A stretch of DNA of 27,885 nucleotides from positions 1-27,885 of the forward strand of contig JBNKDX010000001.1 of assembly GCA_050288485.1 (NCBI GenBank), in the 5' to 3' direction. The DNA comes from Rhodomicrobiaceae bacterium. Lineage in GTDB: Bacteria; Pseudomonadota; Alphaproteobacteria; Rhizobiales; Rhodomicrobiaceae. Shown here piece after piece: positions 2,155 through 15,649 of this stretch (position 1 is the first letter of the stretch; every line of letters starts with the position of its first letter). The notes beneath the pieces were generated by a model. That model made no database searches. It saw only the letters and a program-made list of their open reading frames with translations, and was not told the DNA's origin. The translations under genes and the position numbers were made by a program.

Positions 2155-2190
2155 ATACCGTCGCGATGCTTGTCTGATCGCGACCAGCAA
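2155..2190 (+). repeat. Hairpin micro-insertion, family B (36 bp, GCA flanking duplication)
   Basis: Stem GTCGCGAT/ATCGCGAC, loop GCTTGTCTG (same loop as the 1826-1863 copy on its own strand), tail CAGCAA. Removal restores LRR-KIRNN. Confidence 0.85.
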
Positions 2191-2463
2191 AAAATTCGTA
2201 ACAATGCCGGCCGGCAGATCGCGATGAGCGGCGCCGTCCGGCAGGCTGTGCTGGCGCAATACGCCGCGCACAAAAGCTGGAGTGTCCAGCTCCATCACGA
2301 CAATCTCGCCGCTCTGGCTGAGACGAGGCCCGACCTGCAGCCGGCGCCGTCCTACACCACGCTGCGCCGCTTCTTCAAAGCCAACGGTCTCGACCGCCGC
2401 CGCGTTACATCGCGCCAGACCGAAGGCGCCGCCCGCGCCGAGGACCGGCTCGCTGATCGCGAG

Positions 2464-2897
2464 ATGGGCGACATGTTCGGCGTCGAACTGCGGCCAACCA
2501 ATCGCTGGGGCGGCGCCAAGATGCTCCGTGACCGTTGGCAGCCCCACATCGACGCCGCGCTGTCGCGCCCCGTCCTCATCGTCGACGAGGCGCAGGAAAT
2601 GCCGCCCGCCGTACTCGCCGAACTGCGTCTCCTGTCCTCCGCACGTCTCGACAGCCACATCCTGCTCACCGTCGTCCTCGCCGGCGACGGCCGCCTCGTC
2701 GAACGTCTGCGCTCCGACGAACTGATGCCGCTCGCCAGCCGCATGCGCGTCCGCCTCGCCCCAAGTGAGCGTTTATCGCGAACGGTAAACGTTCGCTTAA
2801 GCGCGCCACGCCGGAGGAACTGCGCGAATACATCGAGCACGGACTGCAGAAAGCCGGCGCCGCCAAGATGATGACGCCCGAGCTGGTCTCTACAGTG
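2464..2897 (+). pseudogene. ExeA/IstB-like AAA+ ATPase, internal fragment
   Basis: Walker B region RPVLIVDEAQEM, followed by LLTVVLAGD and LASRMRVRL. After removing 2762-2796 it continues ALKRATPEELREYIEHGLQKAGAAKMMTPELVSTVSE. Walker A and the C-terminus are missing. Confidence 0.8.
2762..2796 (+). repeat. Hairpin micro-insertion, family C copy 1 (35 bp)
   Basis: CAAGTGAGCGTTTATCGCGAACGGTAAACGTTCGC forms a 12-14 bp stem with G-T wobbles and a CGAA loop. Removal restores the ATPase frame. Confidence 0.75.
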
Positions 2898-2930
2898 AGT
2901 GAGCGCTTGACGCTCACGATAAACGTTCGC
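2898..2930 (+). repeat. Family C copy 2 at the ATPase/IS4 junction
   Basis: AGTGAGCGCTTGACGCTCACGATAAACGTTCGC, 27/33 identical to 2764-2796. Confidence 0.7.
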
Positions 2931-3457
2931 TTTCCCGCGACGCCAATATCGCCCTTGGCAAAGGCAGTGCGATCAAGCCGCTCTCCGCCTTTCTCATCGG
3001 TCAATCCGATAAAACTGAAGCGCTCGTCCGGAAGGTCGAAGGCGCCATGAAGCCGCCATAGGCCGCTGTTCTTCTTTGCCTCTTTCCCTGCCTTCGGAAC
3101 CGTCGTCCCGTCGAGGCGCCGGATGCGCCGTCCTCCTGCCTCGGACGGGACGCCGGCGTTGAGGAGTGTGCCTGCGAGATGTTCCATCCAGGCGCCGCAC
3201 TTGCGCAGGCGCTTAAGCAGGGCAACGTTGGAAAGGTCTGCGAGACCGGCTGATGCGGCCCATGCGCTTGCCGATCTCAGCCCCATGCCGCCCAGGCAAT
3301 AGGCCAGGACCAGACGTAGCAGATCGGTTGCGCAGGCCACTGCCCGGCTTCGAAGAAACGCCCCCTTCACGCGGGCGGACGCCTCGATGGGCGCTGTCCC
3401 GCCAAGCCGGGTAAGGATGGTCTGCCAAAGCTCGTTCAGAAGCGTTTCGTGCGTCAT
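2931..3457 (-). pseudogene. IS4-family transposase, 3-prime truncated (~174 aa remain)
   Basis: DLLRLVLAYCLGGMGLRSASAWA, LSNVALLKRLR, RRLDGTT (first DDE Asp), WRLHGAFDL and LTDEKGGERLDR...GDIGVA. Similarity stops where the second catalytic Asp is expected, and the ORF then reads through unrelated antisense ATPase sequence. Confidence 0.8.
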
Positions 3458-3521
3458 GCCATGCTAGAATCTGACTCGATTCCAGCTGGTGTTAGCGCGT
3501 GTGGGCGAGATGCCTGGGGGG

Positions 3522-3563
3522 CTAAGCAGACTTTCGTTGGCCGCCCAACGAATGCCAGCTTAG
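3522..3563. repeat. Nested inverted repeat upstream of the IS4 gene
   Basis: TTCGTTGG (3533-3540) / CCAACGAA (3545-3552) inside CTAAGC (3522-3527) / GCTTAG (3558-3563). Could be another micro-insertion or an IS-end feature. Confidence 0.45.
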
Positions 3564-3752
3564 ACTCTTTATGTTTTCGCAGAGTTTTTTCGCAAAACCG
3601 GGAAGACCACTTTTGCGAACTCTGCTTAGCGGCGGAAATCCGGCATTTTTCACACGGATTGCAGTGCGGCAGCCCAGGCCCGAATGGATACGCCGTCCGG
3701 TTGAGAACGCTCATCAACGCTATTTTATGGTTTATAGCTGATAGTCCCGCGC

Positions 3753-5162
3753 ATGTTGTGGGAACAGAACTTTCAGCGCGCGGTCGAGTCTCTGGCTGGT
3801 ACGGCGGAGAATAGCGGCGCCTATGTCAGCCCCCGTTCTACCGGCGATCCGGACCAGGTCACTGAAGCCCGCTTTTTGGCGCTCGGCGGAAATTCTCCGG
3901 CGTATTCGGGCGACGCGTTCACCGAAGATCCCGCCGAGCCCTGCGCCGCCATCCTGCTGACGAGGCGCATCGACCCTGCCGAACTGGCCAATGCCCTCGC
4001 CGAGGCGCAGGACCCGGCCTTGCCGATCGCCGATTTCGGCGGCAATCCCGAGCTTCGAAGCGATTTTTCGCGCGCGAATCTGAACGTCGAGAGCTTCGGC
4101 GAGATGAAGCAGACATTCGCGCCGATCTGGCGGCGGCTCGTGGAGCTGCCGTTCCATTCCCTGCGCGAGGACCGGGCCGAACTGACGACGCTCCGTCTCA
4201 GCTATTCGCGCGCCGCGGCCATCGAAGGCGCGCTCACGGCGGAGACGCGCAATGTCGTGGAATACCCGCTCCTCGGGCTGGGCGCCTCCCCGCAGCGTCA
4301 ACTGGAGCTGCTCGCGGACGCGGGCCTTCTGCATCGCCGCTTCTTCACGCGCACGCAGACCTGCGGCAGATGCGGCTCGGCGCGGCTCAACGTGTTCGAG
4401 GCCTGCCCGTCCTGCAGCAGCGCGGACATCGCGGAGCAGGAAATCGTCCACCATTACCGCTGCGGCGCGCAGGAAGCGGAATCGCACTTCAGACAGGGCG
4501 AACTGCTGGTCTGCCCCAAATGCCGCCGCATTCTGCGCCATTTCGGCAAGGATTACGACAAGCCCGGCGTGGTGGTCACCTGCGCGTCCTGCGGCGCCTC
4601 GAATTCACAGCCGGCCGTGCGCTTCGCCTGCCTCGACTGCAAAGCAGTGACGTCGGCGGACGACTCCAAGACGATCGACTGGTTTCACTACGATCTGACT
4701 GACGACGGCATCCGCGCACTGCGCGAAGGCCGTCTGCCGCGCTTCGAGGTCGGAGCGGCGTTCGAAAAGCGCACGCGCGCCTACTCGCCGCAGGACTTCC
4801 GGCTGCTCGTCATGCAGGAGATGCGGGTGGCGGAGCGCTACAAGCGCCCCTTCGCGGTGGCGCGTCTGTCGTTCCCGAACCTCGACACCCTCCGGCACGA
4901 GATGGGGCCTATGGCCGCGAACACTGCTCTTTTGAGCGCCGTCGACGCCGTCACCGGCGTGTTGCGCGGCTCCGATTTCGTAGGCACGCGCGGCGCCGGC
5001 TCCGCGGTGATCGGTTTCCCGGAGACCACGGCCAGAGACGTCCAGGAGAATATCATCAACCGCATCCGCGAAACCATGCGCGAGACGACCGAGGTTCCGA
5101 TCAAGATTGCGGCCGAAGTTTCGGAAGGCGACGCGATCGCGTCGCTGCTGATCGAGAGTTGA
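3753..5162 (+). CDS. TackOD1-like Cys-rich metal-binding protein with C-terminal degenerate GGDEF domain (predicted c-di-GMP receptor)
   Basis: 11 clustered Cys: CGRC, CPSC, HHYRC, CPKC, CASC, CLDC. The C-terminus AERYKRPFAVARL...LRGSDFVGTRGAGSAVIGFPETT follows the GGDEF-fold pattern, with GAGSA in place of GGDEF. Confidence 0.75.
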   Translation: MLWEQNFQRAVESLAGTAENSGAYVSPRSTGDPDQVTEARFLALGGNSPAYSGDAFTEDPAEPCAAILLTRRIDPAELANALAEAQDPALPIADFGGNPELRSDFSRANLNVESFGEMKQTFAPIWRRLVELPFHSLREDRAELTTLRLSYSRAAAIEGALTAETRNVVEYPLLGLGASPQRQLELLADAGLLHRRFFTRTQTCGRCGSARLNVFEACPSCSSADIAEQEIVHHYRCGAQEAESHFRQGELLVCPKCRRILRHFGKDYDKPGVVVTCASCGASNSQPAVRFACLDCKAVTSADDSKTIDWFHYDLTDDGIRALREGRLPRFEVGAAFEKRTRAYSPQDFRLLVMQEMRVAERYKRPFAVARLSFPNLDTLRHEMGPMAANTALLSAVDAVTGVLRGSDFVGTRGAGSAVIGFPETTARDVQENIINRIRETMRETTEVPIKIAAEVSEGDAIASLLIES

Positions 5163-5233
5163 CGCCAGACAGCCGCGGGCGGCGGCGCCTGTGAAGGCGC
5201 TTCTACGCCCCCGCGTCTCCCGAGGAGCCGACC

Positions 5234-6622
5234 ATGCTGAATCGCCCGATGTTGCGGATGCACGCCTCAGACAGGGCGTCCGGCAAGGCCGACGCCTATA
5301 CGAGGCTGCGGCGGCTCATCGACAACAGGAAGGCGTCCGTCGGCATATTCGGGATGGGGCCGGTCGGGTTGCATCTGGCCTGCTCCGCGGCGCAGGGCGC
5401 AGGACTGCAGGTCATCGGGTTCGATATCGACGAGACGCGGATCAAGGCTCTGGAGAAGGGCAAGTCCTATGTGAGCGACCTGCCTTCCACCACCATCGCC
5501 AAGCTCGTCAAGAACGGCCACCTCGTGCCGACCGCGGATTTCTCGCTCGCGCACGATGCGGACGTGCTCATCATCTGCGTGCAGACGCCGCTCAACCAGT
5601 ATCGCGAGCCCGACCTTTCCCATGTCGAAAAGGCGGCGCAGACGCTGTTGCAGCACGCGCGGCCCGCACAACTCGTCATCCTAGAGTCGACGTCCTATCC
5701 GGGCACGACGCGGGACGTGCTCGGCAATCTGCTCAGCCAGCGCGGCCTGACGCTCGGCGAGGACTTGTTCCTGGCGTTTTCTCCCGACCGTCACGATCCC
5801 GCCAATCTCCGCTATGATATCGCCACGACGCCGAAGGTCGTCGGCGGCGAAGGGCGCGCGGCGCTCGATCTCGCCTGCCGCTTCTACGGTTCGTTCATCA
5901 AGGAGGTGACGCCGGTTTCCTCGGCCGACACCGCCGAAGCGGTGAAGCTGACGGAGAACATATTCCGGGCCGTCAACATCAGCCTCGTGAACGAGTTGAA
6001 GATCCTCTTCACGGAAATGGGCATCGACATCTGGGAGGTCATCGAGGCCGCCTCGACCAAGCCGTACGGCTTCATGCCGTTCTTTCCCAGTCCTGGCATG
6101 GGGGGGCACTGCATCCCCATCGACCCCTCCTATCTGGCCTGGCGGGCGCGCTCTTACGGTCTGACGGCGCGTTTCGTCGAACTGGCCGGCGAAATCGACC
6201 TGATGATGCCCAAATACGTGGTCTGCCGGCTCAACACCGCCCTCAATGTGCGGAGGAAACGCAGCCTCTTCGGATCGCGCGTCCTCGTCATCGGCGTGGC
6301 CTACAAAAAGAACGTCAACGATCTCCGCGAGACGCCCGCGGTCGCAGTCATCCGCGAGTTGCTCAAGCGCGGGGCCAAGCCGGCGTACTACGACCCGCTC
6401 GTTCACGTCCTTCCGGCGGAGGACGGGCCGGACCCCACGCCGGAGCTTCGGTCCACGGACTGGTCGCCCGCCAAGATCGCGAGATACGATGCCGTGATCA
6501 TCCATACCGACCACGACGAGATCGATTACGAAGCGCTCGCCGAGAATGCCCAGCTCATCATCGACACGCGCAACGCCTGCGGCAGCCGCGGGATCGTCAG
6601 TTCCAAAATCGTGAAGGCGTGA
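5234..6622 (+). CDS. Nucleotide-sugar 6-dehydrogenase, WbpA/WecC/TviB (UDP-HexNAc) type
   Basis: Rossmann GIFGMGPVG, ICVQTP, LESTSYPGTT, FSPDR, KLTENIFRAVNI, catalytic GGHCIPIDP, AYKKNVNDLRE. RBS GAGGAG at 5222. Confidence 0.9.
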   Translation: MLNRPMLRMHASDRASGKADAYTRLRRLIDNRKASVGIFGMGPVGLHLACSAAQGAGLQVIGFDIDETRIKALEKGKSYVSDLPSTTIAKLVKNGHLVPTADFSLAHDADVLIICVQTPLNQYREPDLSHVEKAAQTLLQHARPAQLVILESTSYPGTTRDVLGNLLSQRGLTLGEDLFLAFSPDRHDPANLRYDIATTPKVVGGEGRAALDLACRFYGSFIKEVTPVSSADTAEAVKLTENIFRAVNISLVNELKILFTEMGIDIWEVIEAASTKPYGFMPFFPSPGMGGHCIPIDPSYLAWRARSYGLTARFVELAGEIDLMMPKYVVCRLNTALNVRRKRSLFGSRVLVIGVAYKKNVNDLRETPAVAVIRELLKRGAKPAYYDPLVHVLPAEDGPDPTPELRSTDWSPAKIARYDAVIIHTDHDEIDYEALAENAQLIIDTRNACGSRGIVSSKIVKA

Positions 6623-6647: not shown

Positions 6648-7646
6648 ATGACGAGAGCGGCGAAGGTACTGATAACGGGCGGCGGCGGCCTGATCGGCGG
6701 ACGCCTCGCCAAGCAGCTCCTGGATGCCGGCTGCATGGTGACGGTGCTGGATGTAGCGCCGCTGGACGCGGGCAGCCTGCCTTATCTGGGCATTGCGCGC
6801 CACCCCGGCCTGGCCTATCTGAAGGGTTCGGTGACGGACACCGAAGCGTGGCGCAGCCTGCCGGACAACTTCGACCGCATCGTGCATGCGGCGGCCATTC
6901 TCGGCATCGAGCGCGTGCCCCGCGAGCAGATCGAGACCATGGATGTGACCGTCGTCGGCACGAGAATGGCGCTCGATTTCGCGCGGACCCTGCCCGGTCT
7001 GGCGCGCTTTCTCTATCTGAGCACATCCGAAATCTACGGTGTTTCGGCGCAGGGGCTGGACGAAGCCGCGTCCGCCGTCATCCAGACCCAGGGCCGCAGA
7101 TGGTGCTATGCCTCGGCCAAGCTGACCGCCGAATTCTACGTGCAGGCTTTCGCTGAACGTTACGGCTTCCCCTATACCATCGTCCGTCCCTTCAACGTCT
7201 ACGGACCGTCGCCCACTTGCAGCGGCGCGCTCACGACGATGGTCAAACGCGCAGCCGCCGGCGACGCCATCCGCGTGACGGGGACGGGGCATCAGACACG
7301 CTCCTGGTGCCATGTGCAGGATTTCGCCAAAGGATTGCAGCGCTGCCTGTTCGACCACGCGGGCTGGAACCAGACGTTCAATCTCGGCAGCGACACGACC
7401 GAAGTCTCTATCCTCCAGCTCGCGCAGACGATCCGCGACATGGCGCAGTCCTCGTCCGCGATCGTGATCGGCGACGGCGGCGAGCCGGACGTGCTGAACC
7501 GGCGGCCGGACCTGACGAAAGCGCGGAAACTGCTGGGGTTTGAAGCGCCGACCGGTCTGCCCGAGGGGATCGAGGATATTTTGGCCTGGGTGAAAAAGAC
7601 AGTGCCGAAAAATCTCGCGACGGCCGAAAAAGTGCCCGGGACTTGA
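6648..7646 (+). CDS. Extended SDR, UDP-uronic acid decarboxylase (UXS/ArnA-like) or epimerase
   Basis: ITGGGGLIG, HAAA, YLSTSEIYG, RWCYASAK (YxxxK), RPFNVYGP, GTGHQTRSWCHVQD, FNLG. The TSE and RWxY motifs resemble the decarboxylase subgroup. Confidence 0.8.
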   Translation: MTRAAKVLITGGGGLIGGRLAKQLLDAGCMVTVLDVAPLDAGSLPYLGIARHPGLAYLKGSVTDTEAWRSLPDNFDRIVHAAAILGIERVPREQIETMDVTVVGTRMALDFARTLPGLARFLYLSTSEIYGVSAQGLDEAASAVIQTQGRRWCYASAKLTAEFYVQAFAERYGFPYTIVRPFNVYGPSPTCSGALTTMVKRAAAGDAIRVTGTGHQTRSWCHVQDFAKGLQRCLFDHAGWNQTFNLGSDTTEVSILQLAQTIRDMAQSSSAIVIGDGGEPDVLNRRPDLTKARKLLGFEAPTGLPEGIEDILAWVKKTVPKNLATAEKVPGT

Positions 7647-7669
7647 TCGCAGAAGGGAGTATCGCTGCA

Positions 7670-8926
7670 ATGGATGCGTTGGACATACTGCGATCATGGG
7701 GCGTAAATAGCTGGCTATATTTTTCTTGGTTCGCGTGCATATTCTTAACGCCGTACTATTATATCGGACCAATGCTTGTACCGATAGGGATGCTATGGAG
7801 CCGGAGCAAGCCCGCAATCACGCCAAATCTCAGCTTCAGCGTGGTTGTGGCGGGCAACAACGAAGAACACCAGCTTCGCAGGTTCGTGGAATCGATTGCC
7901 GAGCAGACGATCTGTGCGGAAGAAGGAAGAATCGAATTGGTCGTGGTCGATGACGGTTCCACAGATCGAACAGCCGAAATCGCTTGGGAACTCCAGCGAG
8001 AAGGCAAAATCGACAAGGTGCTGAAACTGGATCAGCGGGGCGGAAAAGCGGCCGCCCTCAATCTCGCCCATACAGTGTGCACGGGCGATATCATCATCTC
8101 GGCCGACGTTGACACCACCTTCGACAGGGACGCCTTCGCCAGAATACTGGCCTATTTCGCCGACCCGCGCGTCGGCGCTGTCAGTTGTATTGTCAGTCCG
8201 CTCAACGATGACACCAATCTGATCACCCGCTATCAGGTCATCGAATACGCGTTCTTCGCTTATTTGCGCCGCTGCATTTCGAGCGCCCTAAATATGATGC
8301 CGATGCTCGTGGGCGCTTTTTACGCCTGCCGCCGCACGGCGCTCCAGCAAGTGGGCGCATTGGAGCCGGGCGCCGTCGAAGACGTCGATCTCGCCCTGAA
8401 GCTCCGCCAGGCCGGATGGCGTGTCCTCCTGGCCCCTGAGGCTCGTGCGCTGACAATTGTGCCGGATACGATTGCGGGCCTCATCGTGCAGCGCCTGCGC
8501 TGGGATCAGGGTGTGATTAGTCTCTGGACTCGCAAGTCCGTTTCCACAATCAATCCCCGCAACGCCAACTTCTCTATCCTGAATGCACTCGTATTGCTCG
8601 AACATCTTAGCCATGAGGTTATACTTGGAATTATAATTGGGCAGCTAATATTTGTATTGTATATAACAAGCGCCGAGTTCTGGCAGATTTATGTTGGAAC
8701 TATAGTTATAATAGAGTCGTTCCTTATATTTATAGTTTTTATTGCAGCGGCTGTTGAGGGGCAGGTGCCGTTTAGATACGTCGTTTATGTGCCGTATTAC
8801 ATCGTTCAAACGTACATACTGCGCATAATCCGATCGGTTTCAGTGATTTGGGAGCTGATTTTCTTCAGCTCTTTAAAGAACCCAGTCCTTCCAGCTCGCG
8901 TGAGAAGCCAGGTGGAGGTTTCGTGA
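7670..8926 (+). CDS. Processive GT2 polysaccharide synthase (PgaC/IcaA/HasA-like architecture)
   Basis: DDGSTD, GGKAAALN, DVD, EDVD and QRLRW (D,D,D,QxxRW). One N-terminal and several C-terminal hydrophobic segments. ATG 7670 follows GGAG; an alternative TTG at 7643 overlaps the SDR stop. Confidence 0.85.
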   Translation: MDALDILRSWGVNSWLYFSWFACIFLTPYYYIGPMLVPIGMLWSRSKPAITPNLSFSVVVAGNNEEHQLRRFVESIAEQTICAEEGRIELVVVDDGSTDRTAEIAWELQREGKIDKVLKLDQRGGKAAALNLAHTVCTGDIIISADVDTTFDRDAFARILAYFADPRVGAVSCIVSPLNDDTNLITRYQVIEYAFFAYLRRCISSALNMMPMLVGAFYACRRTALQQVGALEPGAVEDVDLALKLRQAGWRVLLAPEARALTIVPDTIAGLIVQRLRWDQGVISLWTRKSVSTINPRNANFSILNALVLLEHLSHEVILGIIIGQLIFVLYITSAEFWQIYVGTIVIIESFLIFIVFIAAAVEGQVPFRYVVYVPYYIVQTYILRIIRSVSVIWELIFFSSLKNPVLPARVRSQVEVS

Positions 8927-9024
8927 TGCATCCTTTCTACCGGCAGCACGAGATATTGATCTTCAATGACACCGATGCCGACGCCAATATCCGGCGCCCC
9001 ATCCACAGCCAAGTGGAGACATGA
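8926..9024 (+). CDS. Putative 32 aa micro-ORF MHPFYRQHEILIFNDTDADANIRRPIHSQVET
   Basis: GGAGGT at 8914-8919. Its ATG overlaps the GT2 stop (TGATG) and its own TGA overlaps the ATG of the next gene (ATGA). Below the size cutoff of the ORF track. Confidence 0.45.
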   Translation: MHPFYRQHEILIFNDTDADANIRRPIHSQVET

Positions 9025-10067
9025 TGATGCGATTCCTGAAACGGCATGGCGCCGCGCGAATTTTGCCCGTCGAAGACCGCAAGCGCCGACTGGGTCTGAT
9101 CCGTTGGCTGTATCTTGGCAGCATTATCGTGCTGATCATCTGGCTGTTCGATCTGTTCTTCGGCGGCTTGTTTTACCTAAGGAGCGACGGTCTGGTTGTC
9201 GGCCAGCCGGGGGCCATCGCTGCTGAATACCCCATCACCGTGCGCGAACTCGCGGTGCGCGAGGGTGACGTCGTCAAGGCCGGGCAGGTGGCGGCGATCG
9301 GGTCGTCCCAGAACGTGGCCGAGACCATCGCGCGCCTGACCTCCGAACTCGCGGTGCGGCAGGGCCGTCTCAGTGAGTTGCGCGTCCGCAGCCATGTGGT
9401 CAATGCTCTGATGCCGCTCGCCGAGAATCGTTTGAAAGTGGCGACACATGCCCGCGAGGAAATGCACCGGCTTCTGGACAGTGGCCTTACAGCGCTCAAT
9501 CAACGCACGGCGGCGGTCGAACTTGAATACCGCGCGAAGACTGATCTCGCGACGTTGTCAGCCGAAAAGAAAGTCCTCGACAAGGAGATCTCCTCGCTGA
9601 CGGTTGCCTTAGGGGAAGCCACAAAGGCTCTCACCGATCTTCGCCGCCTTTACGATGGGGGCCGCCTGCGCGTGCCTTTGGACGGCGTTATCGGCCGCCG
9701 CCTTGCGAGCACGGGTTCGGTGATGCGTGCGGGCGAGCCACTGTTCGAGGTGTATGGCAACAATCTCTATATCCTTGCCTATCTGCCCTCGGGCACGCTC
9801 TACACGGTGAAACCCGGCGATCCGGTGCGCATTTCGACTGGCCTCGACACTTACCGCGGGACGGTCAAGAGCATCGAACCATACGCAGCCGCGCTGCCAC
9901 ATGAGTTTCAGCGGGCTTTTAGGCCGGTCGAGCGTCAGCAGCTCATGCGTGTCGAATTCGACCGCGGCACGACGCCGCCGCCCGTGTTCACCAAGGTGTG
10001 GCTGACGTCCACCCGCTTGGCGGCACGATGGTTCGACGCCTTTCTCAGAAAAGTCTGGCCGACCTGA
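9021..10067 (+). CDS. HlyD-family membrane fusion / periplasmic adaptor protein
   Basis: Basic N-terminus, one TM segment (WLYLGSIIVLIIWLFDLFFGGL), lipoyl-like half motifs ELAVREGDVVKAGQ and VPLDGVIG...VMRAGEPLFEV flanking a coiled coil. RBS GGAG at 9015. Confidence 0.85.
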   Translation: MMMRFLKRHGAARILPVEDRKRRLGLIRWLYLGSIIVLIIWLFDLFFGGLFYLRSDGLVVGQPGAIAAEYPITVRELAVREGDVVKAGQVAAIGSSQNVAETIARLTSELAVRQGRLSELRVRSHVVNALMPLAENRLKVATHAREEMHRLLDSGLTALNQRTAAVELEYRAKTDLATLSAEKKVLDKEISSLTVALGEATKALTDLRRLYDGGRLRVPLDGVIGRRLASTGSVMRAGEPLFEVYGNNLYILAYLPSGTLYTVKPGDPVRISTGLDTYRGTVKSIEPYAAALPHEFQRAFRPVERQQLMRVEFDRGTTPPPVFTKVWLTSTRLAARWFDAFLRKVWPT

Positions 10068-10083
10068 TCTCAGAAAAGGATAG

Positions 10084-10112
10084 GCTGCGGCGCATTGCGA
10101 TACCGCCGCAGC
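10084..10112 (+). terminator. GC-rich hairpin after the EPS operon (possible terminator)
   Basis: Perfect 9 bp stem GCTGCGGCG/CGCCGCAGC, 11 nt loop, no long U tract. Confidence 0.4.
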
Positions 10113-10190
10113 TTCACAAACCCCGTCGTCCCGGTGTATGGAGGAGAGAGGGTTAATGCGGCATATCTCTTCAGATTCGGCGGGTGATGA

Positions 10191-11165
10191 ATGTCTATCG
10201 CGCTCAACAGCTCGACATTGGTGACGGTTTTCGGCGGTTCCGGCTTCGTCGGGCGCTACGTGGTTCAGGCGCTGGCGCGCACCGGCTGCCGGGTGCGCGT
10301 CGCCGTAAGGCGGCCGGACCTTGCCGGACATCTGCAGCCGCTCGGCAATGTCGGACAGATTTGCGCTGTCCAGGCCAATCTGCGCTATGAAGATTCGATC
10401 CGCCGCGCCGTCGAAGGGGCGGACGCCGTCATCAATCTCGTCGGCATCCTCCAGCAGGGCGGAAAACAGACCTTCCGAACGCTCCAGGCCGTCGGCGCGG
10501 GACTGACCGCGCGCGCGGCGAAGGAGGCGGGGGCGCGCGCTTTCGTGCACATCTCGGCGCTCGGCACCAACCGCCTAAGCAGTTCCGCTTATGCCCGGAC
10601 CAAGGCCGAGGGCGAAGATCTGGTCGCGCGCGCCTTTCCCGGCGCGGTGATCCTCAGGCCGTCGATCATGTTCGGGCCGGAGGACGATTTCTTCAACCGT
10701 TTCGCCGCGATGGCGCTTATATCCCCTGTCATACCGCTCCTGGGCGGCGGGCGCACGCGCTTTCAGCCGGTCTATGTGGGCGACACGGCGCAGGCGGTGA
10801 TCGCCGGGCTGGACGGACGCGCCAAGCCGGGCGTCGTTTACGAACTGGGCGGACCGCGCGTCTACACGTTCCGGGAGCTGCTCGACCTCGTCGCCCAATA
10901 CACCGGCCGCCGCCGTTCCTATTTCCCGGTCCCGTTCTGGCTGGCGAAACTTCAGGGCCTGTTCCTGCAGGTGCTGCCGAACGCGCCGCTCACGCTCGAT
11001 CAGGTCCGGCTCCTGCAGACCGACAACGTCGTCAGCGCCGAGGCCATCGACGAAGGCCGCACGCTGGAGGCGTTGGGCGTCGAACTGCACGCCCTGGAGA
11101 CCATCGTGCCAAGCTACCTCGTCCGCTTCCGCCCGAAGGGCGAGTTCTCGCTGCATCAGGCCTGA
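10191..11165 (+). CDS. Complex I NDUFA9-like atypical SDR
   Basis: VTVFGGSGFVGRYVV, RVAVRRPDLAGHLQPLGNVGQI, VINLVGIL, YARTKAEGE, RPSIMFGPEDDFFNRFA, FQPVYVGD. Confidence 0.9.
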   Translation: MSIALNSSTLVTVFGGSGFVGRYVVQALARTGCRVRVAVRRPDLAGHLQPLGNVGQICAVQANLRYEDSIRRAVEGADAVINLVGILQQGGKQTFRTLQAVGAGLTARAAKEAGARAFVHISALGTNRLSSSAYARTKAEGEDLVARAFPGAVILRPSIMFGPEDDFFNRFAAMALISPVIPLLGGGRTRFQPVYVGDTAQAVIAGLDGRAKPGVVYELGGPRVYTFRELLDLVAQYTGRRRSYFPVPFWLAKLQGLFLQVLPNAPLTLDQVRLLQTDNVVSAEAIDEGRTLEALGVELHALETIVPSYLVRFRPKGEFSLHQA

Positions 11166-11470
11166 AGCCGGGCGGCCCCGCGGCACGATAGACACACGAA
11201 CGGGCTGCGATGGTGCGGACTACGTATTCCGCACTCGACACCCCCTGGTGGGAATCGCGTAATACCCTGTGTAGTGGCGTTGGCAAGAGACGCACAACCT
11301 CGCTGTTCCATCACCGGTGCGGGCTTTTCTGTGTCGGCCTGGGGCGCGAGTTAACGCTTTGCTGATATTGCGTCGCGTACAAACGTTTGTGGCCCTTCGC
11401 CGGGACCAGCGTTTGCGGCGCCATTTCGGCGGTTCTGGTCGCGAGTTGCGCCTAATTCCCGGTTCCGGTC

Positions 11471-12169
11471 ATGCTCAGGCTTATTCATTACCCGCTCTGT
11501 CCGTTCTCCCGCTCCATAAGGCTGGCGCTGGGCGAATGCGGCGTGGTCGTGGAGCTTGACGAAGAACGGCCATGGAGCTGGCGGCGCGAGTTCCTCAAGC
11601 TCAACCCCGCCGGAACGCTGCCCGTGCTCTTGGAACGCGGCGAATTCATTCTCGCCGGGGCTTACGCGATCTCCGAATATCTCGGCGAAGCCCACACCAA
11701 GACCAATGGCGAAGGCATACCGCGCAATCTCCTGTTCCCCGGCGCGGGCGCGGAGCGCGCCGAGGTGCGGCGGCTCGCGGACTGGTTCCACCGCAAGCTC
11801 GATGAAGAAGCCAGCCGCTATCTCCTGGAGGAGAAGCTCTACCAGCGTTTCGCCGACCTCGGGCGCAGCACGCCGGATACCGATCTCATCCGTGCGGGGC
11901 GCGCCAATCTACGCTATCATCTCAGCTACATCGGCCATCTGCTGGACACGCGGAAATGGCTGGCGGGCGATGCCTTGAGTTTCGCCGATCTGGCTGCGGC
12001 AGCACATCTGTCGGTGCTGGACTATCTCGGCGAAGTGCCGTGGGACGAGTTCCCGGAGGCCAAGGCGTGGTATGCGCTCCTGAAATCGCGCCCGTCCTTC
12101 CAGCCGCTTCTGGTGGACCGCCTGCCCGGCGTGGCGCCGCCGCGCCTTTACGCGGAGCTTGATTTTTGA
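11471..12169 (+). CDS. fzlA: Glutathione S-transferase family protein, probable FzlA orthologue
   Basis: HYPLCPFSRSIRLAL, LNPAGTLPVL, RWLADWF-like helix, WLAGDALSFADLAAAAHLSVLDY, KSRPSFQPLL. Position next to queG matches the conserved alphaproteobacterial arrangement; orthology is inferred. Confidence 0.75.
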   Translation: MLRLIHYPLCPFSRSIRLALGECGVVVELDEERPWSWRREFLKLNPAGTLPVLLERGEFILAGAYAISEYLGEAHTKTNGEGIPRNLLFPGAGAERAEVRRLADWFHRKLDEEASRYLLEEKLYQRFADLGRSTPDTDLIRAGRANLRYHLSYIGHLLDTRKWLAGDALSFADLAAAAHLSVLDYLGEVPWDEFPEAKAWYALLKSRPSFQPLLVDRLPGVAPPRLYAELDF

Positions 12170-13326
12170 CGCAGGCCATCGACAGTGCGGCGGGAGCGGA
12201 CCGGCGGTACTCAGCCGTGGCCGTCAAGGCCGCACTCTTCGAGCGGGCGGAGCGCGAGGGCTTCGATGCGGCGGGTGTGACCACGCCGGACGGTATCGGG
12301 CAGGCAGGCGAGCGTCTGGCGGCGTTTCTGACCGAGGGCCTGCACGGCGGCATGGACTGGCTTGAGGCGCATCCAGAGCGGCGGCGGTGCCCTTCGGCGC
12401 TCTGGCCGGATGTGCGCTCCATCGTCATGCTGGGCATGAACTACGCGCCGGAAACCGATCCGCTGGCCATACTCGCCGAGCGCGGACGCGGCGCGGTTTC
12501 CGTCTATGCCCGGGGCCGCGACTATCACGACATCGTCAAAGGCAAGCTAAAGGGGCTCGCGGGCTGGCTCGCGTACACGACAGGCGAGGACGTGAAAGTC
12601 TTCGTCGATACCGCGCCGGTGATGGAAAAGCCGCTGGCGCAGGCGGCGGGGCTGGGCTGGCAGGGCAAACATACCAATCTCGTGTCGCGCCGCCTCGGCT
12701 CATGGCTGTTCCTCGGCGCCATCTTCACCACCGCGCACCTGCCGCCGGACGAGCCGGAGCGCGATCACTGCGGCGCCTGCCGCCGCTGTCTCGACGCCTG
12801 CCCCACGAACGCCTTTCCGGCCCCCTACCGGCTCGACGCGCGGCGCTGCATCTCCTATCTCACCATTGAGCACAAGGGCCACATCCCGTGCGAATTCCGG
12901 CGCGCCATCGGCAACCGCATCTATGGTTGTGACGACTGTCTGGCCGTGTGCCCGTGGAACAAGTTCGCCGCTGCCGCCAGAGAGGCGAAATTCGCCGCGC
13001 GGCGCGCAACGGCGGGGGCACCGCTCGCGGAGCTGCTGACGATGGACGACGCCGCGTTCCGGACCGCATTCGCGGGCACGGCCATCAAGCGGACGGGCCA
13101 CGCCCGCTTCATGCGCAACGTGCTGATCGCGGCGGGGAACGCGGATGACGCGCGTCTCCTGCGCCCTGTCATGGCGCATCTCGCCGCTCCCGAGCCGCTG
13201 ATCCGCGCCATGGCCGTGTGGGCGACACGCCGTTTTTTCCCCTGCGGCGATCCAGAGATTGCGCGCATCCGCCAAAATATGCTGCAAAGTGAGACGGATG
13301 AGGCCGTTCGCGCAGAACTGAACTGA
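12166..13326 (+). CDS. queG: Epoxyqueuosine reductase
   Basis: YARGRDYH, FVDTAPVMEKPLA, GWQGKHTNL, CGACRRCLDACPT, CISYLTIE, GCDDCLAVCPWN. TTG start overlaps the upstream stop. Confidence 0.95.
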   Translation: MTQAIDSAAGADRRYSAVAVKAALFERAEREGFDAAGVTTPDGIGQAGERLAAFLTEGLHGGMDWLEAHPERRRCPSALWPDVRSIVMLGMNYAPETDPLAILAERGRGAVSVYARGRDYHDIVKGKLKGLAGWLAYTTGEDVKVFVDTAPVMEKPLAQAAGLGWQGKHTNLVSRRLGSWLFLGAIFTTAHLPPDEPERDHCGACRRCLDACPTNAFPAPYRLDARRCISYLTIEHKGHIPCEFRRAIGNRIYGCDDCLAVCPWNKFAAAAREAKFAARRATAGAPLAELLTMDDAAFRTAFAGTAIKRTGHARFMRNVLIAAGNADDARLLRPVMAHLAAPEPLIRAMAVWATRRFFPCGDPEIARIRQNMLQSETDEAVRAELN

Positions 13327-13347
13327 TTGGCTCGAAGAGGTTTCGTG

Positions 13348-14223
13348 ATGAGTGTTCTCCTCTGCATTGGACTCGGCTATTCGGCGGCTGCGGTTGCGGC
13401 GCGCTTGAAGAGCCCGGAGTGGCGGATCATCGGTGCCGCCCGCAGCGAGGAGAGCGCCGAAGCCGTCAGGGACCTCGGCTATGAGGCCACGGTGCTGGCG
13501 GACGAAGGGCCGTCGGACGAGGTTTCCGCGGCCGTCGCCGAGGCGACGCATCTTCTCGTTTCCGCTCCCCCCGGCGAGGAGGGCGATCCGGTCCTCAACC
13601 GGCTGGAGGGCGATCTGGCGCGGGCGGAACGGCTGTGCTGGATCGGCTATCTGTCCACTGTCGGCGTCTATGGCGATCACGGCGGCGCCTGGGTGGACGA
13701 AGATACGCCGGTGCAGCCGGAGAACGAGCGCACGGCCCGGCGGGTGGCGGCCGAGCAGGCATGGCGGCGCTTCGCATCGGAGCGTGGCCTGCCGCTGCAG
13801 ATCTTCCGCCTCGCAGGGATCTACGGGCCGGGACGCAGCCCGGTGGACGGGCTGAGGATGCTGAAGGTGCGCTATGTCGACAAGCCCGGCCAGGTCTTCA
13901 ACCGCATCCATGTCGAGGACATCGCTACGACCGTCGTTGCGGGCATCCACGCGGGGGCTGAGGCGGGCGGCGTCTTCAACGTGACCGACGACGAACCGGC
14001 GCCGCCCCAGGATGTCGGCATCTTCGCCGCCGAACTGCTCGGCGCGCCCCCGCCTGAAATCGTGCCGTGGGAGAAAGCCGAGCTTTCGCCGATGTCCGCG
14101 AGCTTCTATGAAGCGAACCGGCGCGTGCGCAACCGCCGCATCAAGGAGATGCTTGGCGTGACGCTGGCCTACCCCACCTATCGCGAGGGCCTGCGCGCGC
14201 TGGTGGCCTCGGCGAAGCAATAG
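13348..14223 (+). CDS. NAD(P)-dependent SDR/epimerase (YeeZ-like)
   Basis: IGLGYSA, YLSTVGVYGDHGGAWVDE, FRLAGIYGPGR, KPGQVFNRIHVEDIA, YPTYREGL. ATG 13348 follows GAGG; the ORF track starts at TTG 13327. Confidence 0.9.
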   Translation: MSVLLCIGLGYSAAAVAARLKSPEWRIIGAARSEESAEAVRDLGYEATVLADEGPSDEVSAAVAEATHLLVSAPPGEEGDPVLNRLEGDLARAERLCWIGYLSTVGVYGDHGGAWVDEDTPVQPENERTARRVAAEQAWRRFASERGLPLQIFRLAGIYGPGRSPVDGLRMLKVRYVDKPGQVFNRIHVEDIATTVVAGIHAGAEAGGVFNVTDDEPAPPQDVGIFAAELLGAPPPEIVPWEKAELSPMSASFYEANRRVRNRRIKEMLGVTLAYPTYREGLRALVASAKQ

Positions 14224-14360
14224 ATACGCTTCATCAAGCCCGCCTCCAGGCCGCATTCCCGATCCTTCTTGCAAGTCAGGACCGTAGCCCGGATTAAGGA
14301 TAGGCGCGGATTTTCGCCCTTGCCCTCGCCCGATCGCCCCCTTCCCGCACGCAGAAGGGC

Positions 14361-14388
14361 TTTACGGCGGCCGCGCTGCTGGTAAAGT
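14361..14388 (+). promoter_or_regulatory. Possible sigma70 promoter for ppx
   Basis: TTTACG-16 nt-TAAAGT. Confidence 0.3.
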
Positions 14389-14401
14389 AACAGACCAGTG
14401 A

Positions 14402-15649
14402 ATGCGGGGAAACACCACGTATCCTTCTGGAGTTGCAGTGACGAACAGGGGCGAGCGAGACGGCGCCGTGCACCAGTGCGCGGGCGCAAATGTTCCTGCC
14501 GCGCAGGAGCATGCAGCTGGCCCTTTGGTTGCCGGGACGGCAAACCGCTCTTCCTCGAATGGCGCAGGGCTCGGCCTCGCCTCCGGCTCTGCGGCCTCGC
14601 CGAAGCCGCCTCCGCCGGTCTATGGCGCGCTCGACCTCGGCACCAACAATTGCCGCCTGCTGGTGGCCAGACCCTCGCGCCGCGGCTTTCAGGTCATCGA
14701 CGCCTTTTCCAGGATCATCCGGCTGGGGGAGGGAGTCAGCCAGACCGGCGTGCTCTCCGAGGCGGCCATGTCGCGGACGCTGGAGGCGCTGAAGGTCTGT
14801 TCGGACAAGATGCGGCGCCGCGAGGTGCGCCGCGCGCGCCTCATCGCCACCGAGGCCTGCCGCGTGGCGAAGAACGGCGGCGATTTCGTCAGCCGCGTGC
14901 GCTGTGAAACCGGCCTCGATCTCGAAGTCATCAGCCGTGAGACCGAGGCGAGGCTCGCGGTTGCGGGCTGCGCGTCGCTGATCGACCGCGACTGCGAGTG
15001 GGCGCTGGTGTTCGATATCGGCGGCGGTTCGTCGGAGCTGATCTGGCTTGATCTGCGCCGCGTCGCGCCGGCCAGGCGCCACACCATGAGCGAGCGCGTG
15101 CGCGTGCAGAACGCCATCGCCGGGTGGACGTCGCTGCCTGTGGGGGTGGTCACGCTTTCGGAGCGGTATGGCGGCCGCAATGTCGGTCCGTCGCTATTCG
15201 AGGTCATGGTTGCCGACGTTCTCTGGAAGCTGGACGCCTTCGAGAAGGCGCACGGCATTTCACGCCAGATCGCGGGCGGGCGGGCGCATCTGCTCGGAAC
15301 CTCCGGCACGGTGACCACGGTGGCGGGCGTCCATCTGGGGCTGCCGTGTTACAGCCGCGCCAAGGTGGACGGCTGCTGGCTGACCGAGAACGAGGTCCGC
15401 GCCGTTGTCGCGCGGCTTCTGAGGCTCAACTACGATGGCCGCGCGGCGGAGCCCTGCATTGGGCCGGAGCGCGCCGACCTCGTACTGGCGGGCTGCGCGA
15501 TCCTGGAGGCAATGTTGCGGCTGTGGCCGTGCGAGCGCCTGCGCGTCGCCGACCGGGGCCTTCGCGAGGGGATCCTGGCCAATCTGATGGCCGAGGATAC
15601 GCGCGCGAACGCGCACTGGCGGGAGAGGCGGCAGGGGAACCGCGCATGA
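14402..15649 (+). CDS. ppx: Ppx/GppA family exopolyphosphatase / pppGpp phosphohydrolase
   Basis: ALDLGTNNCRLL, IATEACR, FDIGGGSSE, GTSGTVTT, RADLVLAGCAIL, DRGLREG. The true start may be downstream of 14402. Confidence 0.9.
   Translation: MRGNTTYPSGVAVTNRGERDGAVHQCAGANVPAAQEHAAGPLVAGTANRSSSNGAGLGLASGSAASPKPPPPVYGALDLGTNNCRLLVARPSRRGFQVIDAFSRIIRLGEGVSQTGVLSEAAMSRTLEALKVCSDKMRRREVRRARLIATEACRVAKNGGDFVSRVRCETGLDLEVISRETEARLAVAGCASLIDRDCEWALVFDIGGGSSELIWLDLRRVAPARRHTMSERVRVQNAIAGWTSLPVGVVTLSERYGGRNVGPSLFEVMVADVLWKLDAFEKAHGISRQIAGGRAHLLGTSGTVTTVAGVHLGLPCYSRAKVDGCWLTENEVRAVVARLLRLNYDGRAAEPCIGPERADLVLAGCAILEAMLRLWPCERLRVADRGLREGILANLMAEDTRANAHWRERRQGNRA

What the first reader, a model, noticed from the sequence alone, without database searches (positions are those of the whole stretch)
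3753..5162. Multi-zinc-finger protein fused to a dead GGDEF domain with an exactly spaced RxxD I-site (PelD-like role)
Seen: RGSD-FVGTR-GAGSA has the same spacing as the PleD I-site/A-site (RAID-LPCRY-GGEEF). The catalytic motif is destroyed but RxxD is intact. Upstream lie five CxxC pairs plus HHYRC (11 Cys) after a wHTH-like segment. Established: PelD is a degenerate GGDEF protein whose RxxD binds c-di-GMP to switch on Pel synthesis, and TackOD1 was described as an output domain of unknown function. Inference: this is a soluble c-di-GMP receptor for the GT2, which has no visible PilZ domain. That would give TackOD1 a function, possibly integrating metal or redox state.
Basis: partly seen in the sequence, partly recalled or inferred. 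Interest (0 to 1): 0.78.

Follow-up and report, generated by a model that had tools for sequence, protein, structure and literature searches.

The report
Zinc-ribbon c-di-GMP receptor of glycan synthase
This gene encodes a soluble protein joining a triple zinc-ribbon (TackOD1) module to a dead diguanylate-cyclase domain that keeps only its c-di-GMP-binding pocket; it always sits in front of a membrane sugar-polymer synthase and its export adaptor, so it is most likely their c-di-GMP switch, a type of device already studied genetically in Shewanella (mxdABC) rather than a new one.

Summary
ORF 3753-5162 (469 aa) has four parts: a receiver-like domain without a phospho-acceptor, a winged-helix with a 3-zinc TackOD1 array inserted in its wing (Pfam E 1.5e-47), and a GGDEF-fold domain (Z 14.5). 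That last domain has lost its catalytic motif (GAGSA). It keeps RxxD (R405, D408) and a third arginine (R437), the same triad needed for c-di-GMP binding in PleD and PelD.

Across 221 receiver-less homologues, 190 keep R405 and D408. In a sister clade that carries a real receiver domain, 0 of 16 do. In every related locus with enough downstream DNA (75 of 79, plus 15 of 16 in Gammaproteobacteria), the gene is followed by a processive GT2 synthase and an HlyD-type adaptor.

A complex prediction with the GT2 gave weak support only (0.43 against a best control of 0.01).

It is not new in kind. Shewanella mxdABC has the same layout, and MxdA binds c-di-GMP. Earlier follow-ups of this scan reached the same family on other DNA. 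I could not fetch MxdA to test homology directly. The metal/redox idea has no support.

The parts
3753..5162 (+). Whole gene, 469 aa: REC-like domain, wHTH with TackOD1 Zn-ribbon insert, degenerate GGDEF domain
   Evidence: AF2 pLDDT 91.9, pTM 0.83
3864..4145 (+). aa 38-131: receiver-like (pseudo-REC) domain. It has no Asp at the end of strand 3 (AILL-T70) and no acidic pair after strand 1 (FLALGGN). It carries the conserved DPAxPIADF...R102xD104 motif.
   Evidence: VIA Z 7.6-7.7 to REC domains 3jte and 4wxm, 91 aa, rmsd 2.5; alignment
4152..4361 (+). aa 134-203: N-terminal part of a winged-helix domain (helices 138-152 and 180-189, first wing strand 193-203)
   Evidence: MarR/PadR wHTH matches, Z 5.5-6.8, spanning both ends of the domain model
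4362..4640 (+). aa 204-296: three zinc-ribbon knuckle pairs. Probable sites are C204/C207+C218/C221, H234/C237+C254/C257 and C277/C280+C293/C296. The pairing is inferred from order. The array is inserted in the wing of the wHTH.
   Evidence: invariant Cys/His; Pfam TackOD1; Galperin 2018 PMC5847659; no solved analogue by Foldseek
4641..4754 (+). aa 297-334: returning wing strand (306-315), closing helix (317-325) and linker
4752..5162 (+). aa 334-469: degenerate GGDEF-fold domain
   Evidence: Z 14.5 to DGC domains; PelD 4dmz Z 10.7; BcsE 6ybb Z 8.8
4965..4976 (+). RGSD = RxxD I-site (R405, D408)
   Evidence: R405 103/113 and D408 108/113; both present in 190/221 REC-less homologues
4992..5006 (+). 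GAGSA: remnant of the GGDEF active-site motif, not conserved in the family
5061..5063 (+). R437: third I-site arginine, aligned with the first R of 3IGN ERIRE. It corresponds to PleD R390 / PelD R402 by position.
   Evidence: 90/113 conserved
5234..6622 (+). Nucleotide-sugar 6-dehydrogenase (UDP-ManNAc/UDP-GlcNAc dehydrogenase-like). Lineage-specific insert between regulator and synthase.
   Evidence: present in L001/L005 and L036 only
6648..7646 (+). SDR epimerase/dehydratase/decarboxylase-type enzyme
7643..8926 (+). Processive membrane GT2 synthase (DDGS, DVD, ED and QRLRW motifs), 427 aa, no PilZ
9021..10067 (+). HlyD-type membrane-fusion (periplasmic adaptor) protein, 348 aa, one N-terminal TM segment
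10191..11165 (+). NmrA/SDR-type NAD(P)-binding protein, 95% identical in the nearest relative; membership in the system uncertain

Best explanation
The protein is a cytoplasmic c-di-GMP receptor dedicated to the downstream GT2 synthase / HlyD-adaptor export machine, an MxdA-type regulator. Shown: it has a dead GGDEF domain whose only strongly conserved surface features are the I-site residues, and its gene is welded to GT2 and MFP genes across Proteobacteria. Inferred: an intercalated c-di-GMP dimer binds R405/D408/R437, possibly with R362/R365 as the secondary arginine. Binding changes the position of the GGDEF* domain relative to the wHTH/TackOD1 module, or changes dimerisation. The zinc-ribbon module then docks on the cytoplasmic GT domain of the synthase and switches polymerisation and export on. 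The polymer is probably HexNAc-uronate- or pentose-containing here, given the inserted nucleotide-sugar genes. In a sister clade the same TackOD1-GGDEF* body takes its input from a fused receiver domain instead of the I-site. TackOD1 therefore looks like the output (synthase-directed) part, and GGDEF*/REC like interchangeable inputs.
For: Fold and homology: profile against GGDEF structures, 3IGN E 4.7e-13; Z 14.5. Catalytic loss with I-site retention: (R405 91%, D408 96%, R437 80%; A-site positions unconserved); 190/221 keep R405 and D408 without a REC, 0/16 with one. The same three residues are required in PelD (R367, D370, R402; PMC2170427) and form the PleD I-site (R359, D362, R390; PMC7288161). 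Gene linkage: 75/79 genome loci have GT2 then MFP directly downstream, and the other four end within 400 nt. The same holds in 15/16 Gammaproteobacteria loci. Called genes are separated by 2-4 nt or overlap. Neither GT2 nor MFP has a PilZ domain. The genome has at least 2 canonical GGDEF proteins. Complex prediction with 2 c-di-GMP riding along: ipSAE 0.43 (three runs 0.40-0.47), best control 0.01. The mark was reached by 58 of 80 solved complexes and 2 of 110 mismatched pairs, but scores of 0.60 or under by only 7 of those 80 and by both passing mismatches, so the support is weak. The contacts lie in the Zn-ribbon region (aa 219-286) and the GT domain. Precedent: MxdA of S. oneidensis binds c-di-GMP and is said to act through GT2 MxdB, with MFP-like MxdC next.
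Against: There is no binding data for any member of this alphaproteobacterial clade. RxxD and the third Arg are also consensus residues of active GGDEF domains, so part of their conservation is inheritance. The REC-clade contrast rests on few independent evolutionary events. The predicted interface is not enriched in conserved residues (Tack side p = 0.11; GT2 side below the domain average), and the complex score is in the weak range. In this window and its nearest relative, 2-3 sugar-nucleotide genes separate the regulator from the GT2. Here the GT2 has also been replaced by a copy only 44% identical while the regulator stayed 86% identical, which a tight protein-protein fit would not obviously tolerate. 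The module is built on a winged helix, which fits a DNA-binding rival. Homology to MxdA itself was not tested by sequence.
Confidence: 0.6

Rival explanations
1. [quoted passage not shown] The winged helix (with the Zn ribbons as an extended wing) binds DNA upstream of the operon, and c-di-GMP at the I-site switches transcription of the GT2/MFP genes. CuxR does this for the GT2-HlyD arabinose-polysaccharide operon of Sinorhizobium.
For: All 50 best structural matches of the isolated aa 134-334 domain are MarR/PadR-type DNA-binding winged helices (Z 5.5-6.8). It is the first gene of the operon. It tolerates inserted genes and a swapped GT2. A 24-nt block just upstream of the start codon is identical to the 86%-identical relative while the rest of the spacer has diverged.
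Against: Z values are below the level at which the tool's own notes accept more than a common arrangement. The putative recognition helix (aa 180-189, RQLELLADAG) is acidic/hydrophobic rather than basic. No k-mer is shared upstream of the gene in more than 12 of 77 loci, fewer than in coding controls. Start/stop overlaps with the GT2 gene are the rule, as for subunits made in fixed proportion. The complex prediction puts the Zn module on the GT2 (weak). Published statements place MxdA action at the post-transcriptional level through MxdB (PMC13713693).
Confidence: 0.17
2. It is a constitutive structural or assembly subunit of the synthase. The GGDEF* domain serves only for dimerisation or docking, and the RxxD/R residues are inherited or structural, so c-di-GMP plays no part.
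For: RxxD and the downstream Arg belong to the general GGDEF consensus. The REC-fused clade works without them. Thirty-one of 221 REC-less homologues lack R405 or D408.
Against: Every catalytic and GTP-binding position has drifted while R405, D408 and R437 stay at 80-96% down to 25% overall identity. These residues are lost exactly where another input domain is present. The Shewanella operon's first protein does bind c-di-GMP.
Confidence: 0.13
3. It is a metal or redox sensor. The 11 Cys and the His bind a redox-active centre or sense zinc, and this state gates the synthase.
For: Only the high, invariant cysteine content.
Against: The spacing (CxxC-10-CxxC, HxxC-16-CxxC, CxxC-12-CxxC) and the predicted beta-hairpin knuckles are those of structural zinc ribbons. 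The domain's describers reached the same view (PMC5847659). No redox partner genes are linked.
Confidence: 0.04

Closest known systems
MxdA of the Shewanella oneidensis MR-1 mxdABCD operon (SO4180-SO4177)
   Same: It is the first gene of an operon followed by a GT2 synthase (MxdB) and an efflux-adaptor-like protein (MxdC). Its GGDEF motif is degenerate (NVDEF). It is a c-di-GMP-binding effector said to stimulate polysaccharide synthesis through MxdB. It also binds a receiver protein (CheY3-P), which parallels the REC-fused clade found here (PMC13713693, PMC7666153, PMC3691769, PMC11395469). Gammaproteobacterial members of the present family keep RxxD and an xxEEF remnant (STEEF).
   Different: Sequence homology between this protein and SO4180 was not tested, because the sequence could not be fetched with the tools. 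No mxdD-like gene is seen here. Here the A-site is fully erased (GAGSA) and nucleotide-sugar genes are inserted. No paper in the searched library connects MxdA with TackOD1.
PelD (Pseudomonas aeruginosa Pel system)
   Same: It has a degenerate GGDEF domain whose RxxD plus a downstream Arg (R367, D370, R402) bind c-di-GMP and are needed for polymer production. Its GGDEF* fold matches at Z 10.7.
   Different: PelD is an inner-membrane protein with TM helices and a GAF domain. The Pel machinery uses a GT4 (PelF) and other partners. PelD has no Zn ribbons, wHTH or REC-like domain.
BcsE (E. coli-type cellulose secretion regulator; REC*-GGDEF* 'GIL' module)
   Same: It is soluble, has a degenerate receiver plus a degenerate GGDEF, binds dimeric c-di-GMP at the I-site, and docks a partner through a separate face (PMC7439463). 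Structural match Z 8.8.
   Different: BcsE partners with BcsQ/R/F, and its synthase BcsA has its own PilZ. It has no TackOD1/wHTH insert. It enhances secretion rather than acting as the sole c-di-GMP input.
YdaK (B. subtilis) and PssE (L. monocytogenes)
   Same: Both are degenerate GGDEF I-site receptors encoded inside synthase-dependent EPS operons. YdaK appears among the structural matches.
   Different: Both are membrane-anchored, Gram-positive, and have no Zn-ribbon module or MFP partner.
BgsA/BgsB(/TolC) mixed-linkage glucan system and other GT2-HlyD tripartite exporters
   Same: A GT2 synthase is paired with an HlyD-type adaptor, is c-di-GMP-activated and occurs in Alphaproteobacteria. 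An outer-membrane TolC-type partner is encoded elsewhere (PMC13438883).
   Different: BgsA senses c-di-GMP with its own C-terminal domain. Here the GT2 is only about 420 aa and the sensor is a separate protein.
Archaeal REC-TackOD1 / REC-wHTH-TackOD1 response regulators (PF18551)
   Same: They have the same 5 CxxC + HxxC zinc module, described as an output domain of unknown function (PMC5847659).
   Different: The archaeal proteins were reported in type IV pilus loci and lack GGDEF. The bacterial proteins are tied to GT2 synthases.

Membership tests
TackOD1 (Pfam PF18551) | Match to the family model above its gathering score | tested here: met
   162.1 bits against a cut-off of 32, E 1.5e-47, aa 139-314, model positions 6-187 of 188
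TackOD1 (Pfam PF18551) | Five CxxC motifs plus one HxxC (11 conserved Cys) | tested here: met
   All present and invariant or at least 90% conserved; definition from PMC5847659
GGDEF domain (fold) | Diguanylate-cyclase alpha/beta fold | tested here: met
   Family profile against PDB GGDEF chains, E 4.7e-13; VIA Z 14.5, rmsd 2.3-3.0 A over 131 aa; Foldseek TM 0.6-0.69 by target
Active diguanylate cyclases | GG(D/E)EF active-site motif and metal/GTP-binding residues | tested here: not met
   GAGSA at the motif position. The position is not conserved in the family. The DxD of strand 1 is replaced by SFPN
I-site c-di-GMP receptors with degenerate GGDEF (PelD, BcsE, YdaK, PssE, MxdA type) | RxxD upstream of the former active-site motif plus a downstream Arg | tested here: met
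   R405-x-x-D408 and R437; 91%, 96% and 80% conserved; aligned on RqsD and ERIRE of 3IGN
I-site c-di-GMP receptors with degenerate GGDEF (PelD, BcsE, YdaK, PssE, MxdA type) | Measured c-di-GMP binding that depends on the I-site | not testable with these tools
   Needs DRaCALA, ITC or MST with wild type and R405A/D408A/R437A
MxdA / mxdABC-type operon | Gene order: degenerate-GGDEF protein, GT2 synthase, HlyD/efflux-adaptor-like protein | tested here: met
   Window order with inserted sugar genes. The order is direct in 75/79 and 15/16 related loci. The published mxd layout is the same
MxdA / mxdABC-type operon | Sequence homology to S. oneidensis SO4180 | not tested
   SO4180 could not be obtained. 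Three homologue searches, a 400-genome Gammaproteobacteria sample and name look-ups gave Pseudomonas, Stutzerimonas, Legionella, Francisella, Acidithiobacillus and Chromatiales, but no Shewanella
PelD family | N-terminal transmembrane helices and a GAF domain before GGDEF* | tested here: not met
   No Pfam GAF or TM-type hit. The model shows REC-like, wHTH and Zn domains
BcsE (GIL) family | REC*-GGDEF* tandem that recruits BcsQ/BcsR | tested here: not met
   REC-like and GGDEF* domains are present, but a 200-aa wHTH/TackOD1 module separates them. No bcsQ/R/F-like genes are nearby
Response-regulator receiver (REC) | Flavodoxin-like fold with a phospho-acceptor Asp at the end of strand 3 and an acidic pair after strand 1 | tested here: not met
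   Fold match Z 7.6-7.7, which is borderline. Strand 3 ends AILL-T70 and strand 1 ends FLALG-GN. No conserved Asp is seen at either place
MarR/PadR-type wHTH transcription factors | Winged-helix fold | tested here: inconclusive
   The 50 best matches are all wHTH, but at Z 5.5-6.8, below the tool's own trust level. Foldseek found nothing at E <= 0.001
MarR/PadR-type wHTH transcription factors | Sequence-specific DNA binding | not testable with these tools
   No conserved upstream k-mer in 77 loci is only weak negative evidence; an EMSA is needed

The most novel reading that the evidence does not exclude
TackOD1 is a universal docking module for processive GT2 synthases, found from archaea to bacteria, and its input is interchangeable. 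One clade reads c-di-GMP through a relic I-site. The sister clade reads phosphorylation through a fused receiver and has let the I-site decay. This fusion would be a Rosetta stone for the published but unexplained CheY3-P/MxdA interaction in Shewanella. It would also give an orphan Pfam domain a defined molecular job.
Probability: 0.4. Interest if true: 0.55.

Novelty: new member of a known kind. Interest (0 to 1): 0.35.

Why it matters
Synthase-dependent exopolysaccharide systems are the main output of c-di-GMP signalling in biofilms. This family is large: 2097 clusters at 50% identity. It occurs in Pseudomonas putida/fluorescens, Legionella, Francisella, Bradyrhizobium, Thalassospira and many soil and marine Alphaproteobacteria. 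It is annotated only as 'diguanylate cyclase' or 'TackOD1 domain-containing metal-binding protein', and its polymer is unknown. Recognising the protein as an I-site-only receptor tied to a GT2/HlyD exporter corrects a widespread mis-annotation as a cyclase. It also gives TackOD1 a working context and supplies clear point mutants (R405, D408, R437) for testing. For this window itself the result is ordinary: one more copy of a family that the scan has met repeatedly, and that has a genetically studied counterpart in Shewanella.

Tried and rejected
1. Fetching Shewanella MxdA (SO4180) to test homology directly failed.
- Homologue searches from an alpha, a Pseudomonadaceae and a Stutzerimonas query listed no Shewanella.
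- A 400-genome Gammaproteobacteria sample gave 16 family hits. Those named were Legionella, Francisella, Stutzerimonas, Acidithiobacillus and Chromatiales.
- I tried to find Shewanella genomes through the MtrC family PF22113. That led only to 58-65% GC genomes without TackOD1.
- An E. coli record gave a handle without relatives.
- AlphaFold DB cluster hits carried no organism names.
- The papers by Thormann 2006, Rakshe 2011 and Whitney 2012 are not held.

2. Operator search. No 8- to 10-mer is shared upstream of the gene in more than 12 of 77 loci. No sigma-70-like promoter or terminator was found in 3300-5300.

3. Interface conservation. The predicted contact residues are not more conserved than the rest.

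4. The complex prediction with the GT2 gave 'weak support' (0.43 against a best control of 0.01). The mark was reached by 58/80 solved and 2/110 mismatched pairs, but scores of 0.60 or under by only 7 of those 80 and by both passing mismatches. It is used as a hint only. Ligand placement was not scored.

5. Foldseek found no solved analogue of the whole TackOD1 module.

6. PelD and BcsE membership were rejected on architecture.

7. Metal/redox sensing was rejected for lack of any evidence.

Full report
**The object.** The window is high-GC DNA (about 64%) from a metagenome-assembled genome of 2.38 Mb, 70% complete. Its nearest relative is a Rhodomicrobiaceae MAG with 86% protein identity and 84% DNA identity. 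ORF 3753-5162(+) gives a 469-aa protein, P0001. Downstream on the same strand lie five genes:
- a nucleotide-sugar dehydrogenase (5234-6622);
- an SDR epimerase/dehydratase-type enzyme (6648-7646);
- a processive GT2 synthase (7643-8926) with DDGS, DVD, ED and QRLRW motifs;
- an HlyD-type membrane-fusion protein (9021-10067);
- an NmrA/SDR protein (10191-11165).

Upstream is a decayed mobile-element region. Further downstream are housekeeping genes: rpsB, tsf, pyrH, cdsA, dxr and rseP.

**Checking the observation.**
- Pfam TackOD1 matches aa 139-314 at E 1.5e-47.
- The five CxxC pairs and H234-x-x-C237 are invariant or nearly so in alignments of 36 and 113 homologues. This is the pattern by which Galperin et al. 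defined the domain, whose function they called obscure (PMC5847659).
- Codons 4965-5063 read RGSD, five residues, GAGSA, and 19 residues later R437.
- As a single sequence the C-terminal part only grazes GGDEF models. A profile of the family hits solved GGDEF domains (3IGN E 4.7e-13, PleD 3e-5). It aligns R405/D408 on the RxxD of 3IGN, the GAGSA segment on GGEEF and FPET on LPET.
- An AlphaFold model built on 113 sequences is confident (pLDDT 91.9, pTM 0.83). Its aa 334-469 superpose on diguanylate-cyclase domains at Z 14.5. PelD matches at Z 10.7 and BcsE at Z 8.8.
- One correction: most homologues are one residue shorter between RxxD and the motif remnant. The spacing is therefore exact in this copy but not in the family.

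**Anatomy beyond the finding.**
- aa 38-131 resemble a receiver domain (Z 7.6-7.7 to 3jte and FleQ-REC). No Asp stands at the end of strand 3 and no acidic pair follows strand 1, so this is a pseudo-receiver.
- The isolated aa 134-334 domain (pLDDT 93.5) matches only MarR/PadR winged helices in the wide structural search (Z 5.5-6.8). Those alignments use both ends of the domain. The three zinc ribbons are therefore an insertion in the wing of a winged helix.
- Foldseek finds no solved analogue of the whole module.
- The protein thus reads REC*-wHTH[3 Zn]-GGDEF*, and it is soluble.

**Is the I-site under selection?** In 113 sequences, down to 25% identity, the catalytic positions are unconserved. 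R405 is present in 103, D408 in 108 and R437 in 90. R362 (93) and R365 (95) lie at the end of the helix that supplies the secondary I-site arginine in PleD-type enzymes; that placement is an inference from the 3IGN alignment. These are the residues that matter elsewhere. PleD uses R359, D362 and R390 plus R313 from a neighbouring domain (PMC7288161). In PelD, R367A, D370A and R402A each abolish c-di-GMP binding and pellicle formation (PMC2170427).

A natural contrast supports this. A sister clade carries a genuine receiver domain in front of the same body and also precedes GT2/MFP genes. In that clade 0 of 16 members keep R405 and D408, against 190 of 221 receiver-less members. The contrast rests on few evolutionary events and is not a statistical proof. 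It fits an I-site that serves as signal input and decays when another input is present. The window's genome has at least two canonical GGDEF proteins, so c-di-GMP is made there.

**Gene linkage.**
- The family is large: 2097 clusters at 50% identity with E <= 0.001.
- In 79 loci from species-representative genomes, 75 have the GT2 gene and then the MFP gene directly downstream on the same strand. The four exceptions end within 400 nt of the gene. These loci come from Hyphomicrobiales, Rhodospirillales, Thalassospira, Roseibium, Bradyrhizobium guangxiense, Rhodopila globiformis and some Beta- and Gammaproteobacteria.
- Called genes are 2-4 nt apart or overlap.
- In a sample of 400 Gammaproteobacteria, 16 carry the family and 15 of those show the GT2 next door. 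Named members include Pseudomonas putida, P. fluorescens and P. frederiksbergensis, Stutzerimonas, Legionella, Francisella and Acidithiobacillus. They keep RxxD with an xxEEF remnant such as STEEF.
- Neither the GT2 nor the MFP has a PilZ domain.

**Mechanism.** The best-supported reading is a c-di-GMP receptor that controls the GT2/MFP exporter.

For direct docking, a complex prediction was run with two c-di-GMP molecules riding along and the GT2 as partner. It scored ipSAE 0.43 (runs 0.40-0.47) against a best control of 0.01. The mark was reached by 58 of 80 solved complexes and 2 of 110 mismatched pairs. Scores of 0.60 or under were reached by only 7 of those 80 and by both mismatches that passed, so the tool's verdict is weak support. 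The contacts fall on the Zn-ribbon face (aa 219-286, including H233, Y235, R236, K256, D267) and on the cytoplasmic GT domain. These residues are not more conserved than their surroundings.

- In its favour: the fold matches, the tolerance of inserted genes and of a swapped GT2, and a 24-nt upstream block conserved with the nearest relative.
- Against it: the lack of any shared upstream motif among 77 loci, the acidic putative recognition helix, and the subunit-like translational coupling.

My estimates are about 0.6 for the receptor-subunit model, 0.17 for the transcription factor, 0.13 for a c-di-GMP-independent subunit and 0.04 for a metal/redox sensor.

**Comparison with what is known.** A note from earlier follow-ups of this scan pointed to the Shewanella mxdABCD operon. 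I checked the literature myself.
- mxdA is the first gene. MxdB is a membrane GT2 needed for three-dimensional biofilms. MxdC resembles an efflux adaptor (PMC3691769).
- MxdA binds c-di-GMP and interacts with CheY3 and the cyclase PdgA (PMC7666153, PMC11395469).
- It is described as carrying an NVDEF motif in place of GGDEF and as stimulating polysaccharide synthesis through MxdB (PMC13713693).

Layout and proposed role are thus the same as here. The many attempts are listed under Tried and rejected. Only one paper in the searched library mentions TackOD1, and it does not mention MxdA. Other analogues are PelD, BcsE, YdaK and PssE, which are I-site receptors of synthases, and BgsA/BgsB/TolC, a GT2-HlyD exporter with the c-di-GMP site on the synthase itself.

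**Verdict.** The receptor role is well founded by comparison, the redox idea is unfounded, and the novelty is overstated. This is a new alphaproteobacterial member of a known kind of device, found by this scan before on other DNA. What remains of wider interest is the unpublished link between TackOD1 and GT2 synthases, and the apparent swap of input domains.

Noticed in passing
window 7594-8959: The GT2 gene has been replaced inside an otherwise conserved operon. Flanks are 82-84% identical in DNA to the Rhodomicrobiaceae relative. The GT2 protein is only 44% identical, against 86% for the regulator, 89% for the dehydrogenase, 76% for the MFP and 95% for the last SDR. The relative has an extra SDR gene here (2360 bp against 1365 bp). 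GC falls to 0.53-0.59, against about 0.65 around it.
   Followed up: partly
window about 3708-3735: A 24-nt AT-rich block (CTCAACGCTATTTTATGGTTTAT) lies 20-45 nt before the start codon. It is identical in the 86%-identical relative, while the rest of the intergenic region has diverged. It may be a promoter -10/leader or a regulatory site. Only two sequences were compared.
   Followed up: partly
loci L084-L087 and proteins P0212, P0223, P0226, P0227, P0232, P0235: A sister clade has one or two genuine receiver domains fused in front of the same REC*-TackOD1-GGDEF* body. It also overlaps a GT2 gene, and in L087 it sits beside histidine kinases, a single REC protein and an Hpt gene. Its I-site is lost (0/16).
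   Followed up: partly
locus L036 (Chelativorans sp. J32) 9158-15348: A second lineage also has sugar-nucleotide genes in the cluster: a dehydrogenase 52% identical to the window's, plus an SDR. Here they are placed after the MFP instead of before the GT2.
   Followed up: no
window 2170-3457, both strands: An AAA_22-type ORF (2170-2871, +) and an overlapping 263-aa ORF without Pfam match (2666-3457, -) lie directly upstream. This looks like a decayed transposon. First-stage notes describe hairpin micro-insertions here.
   Followed up: no
window 8926-9021: There is a 95-nt gap between the GT2 stop and the MFP start, where relatives have 0-6 nt. A first-stage note proposes a 32-aa micro-ORF in it. 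I did not examine this.
   Followed up: no
proteins P0301, P0338-P0428 (Pseudomonas, Stutzerimonas): NCBI names members of this family 'diguanylate cyclase' or 'diguanylate cyclase domain-containing protein', although the motif is STEEF or worse. This is probably a systematic mis-annotation.
   Followed up: partly
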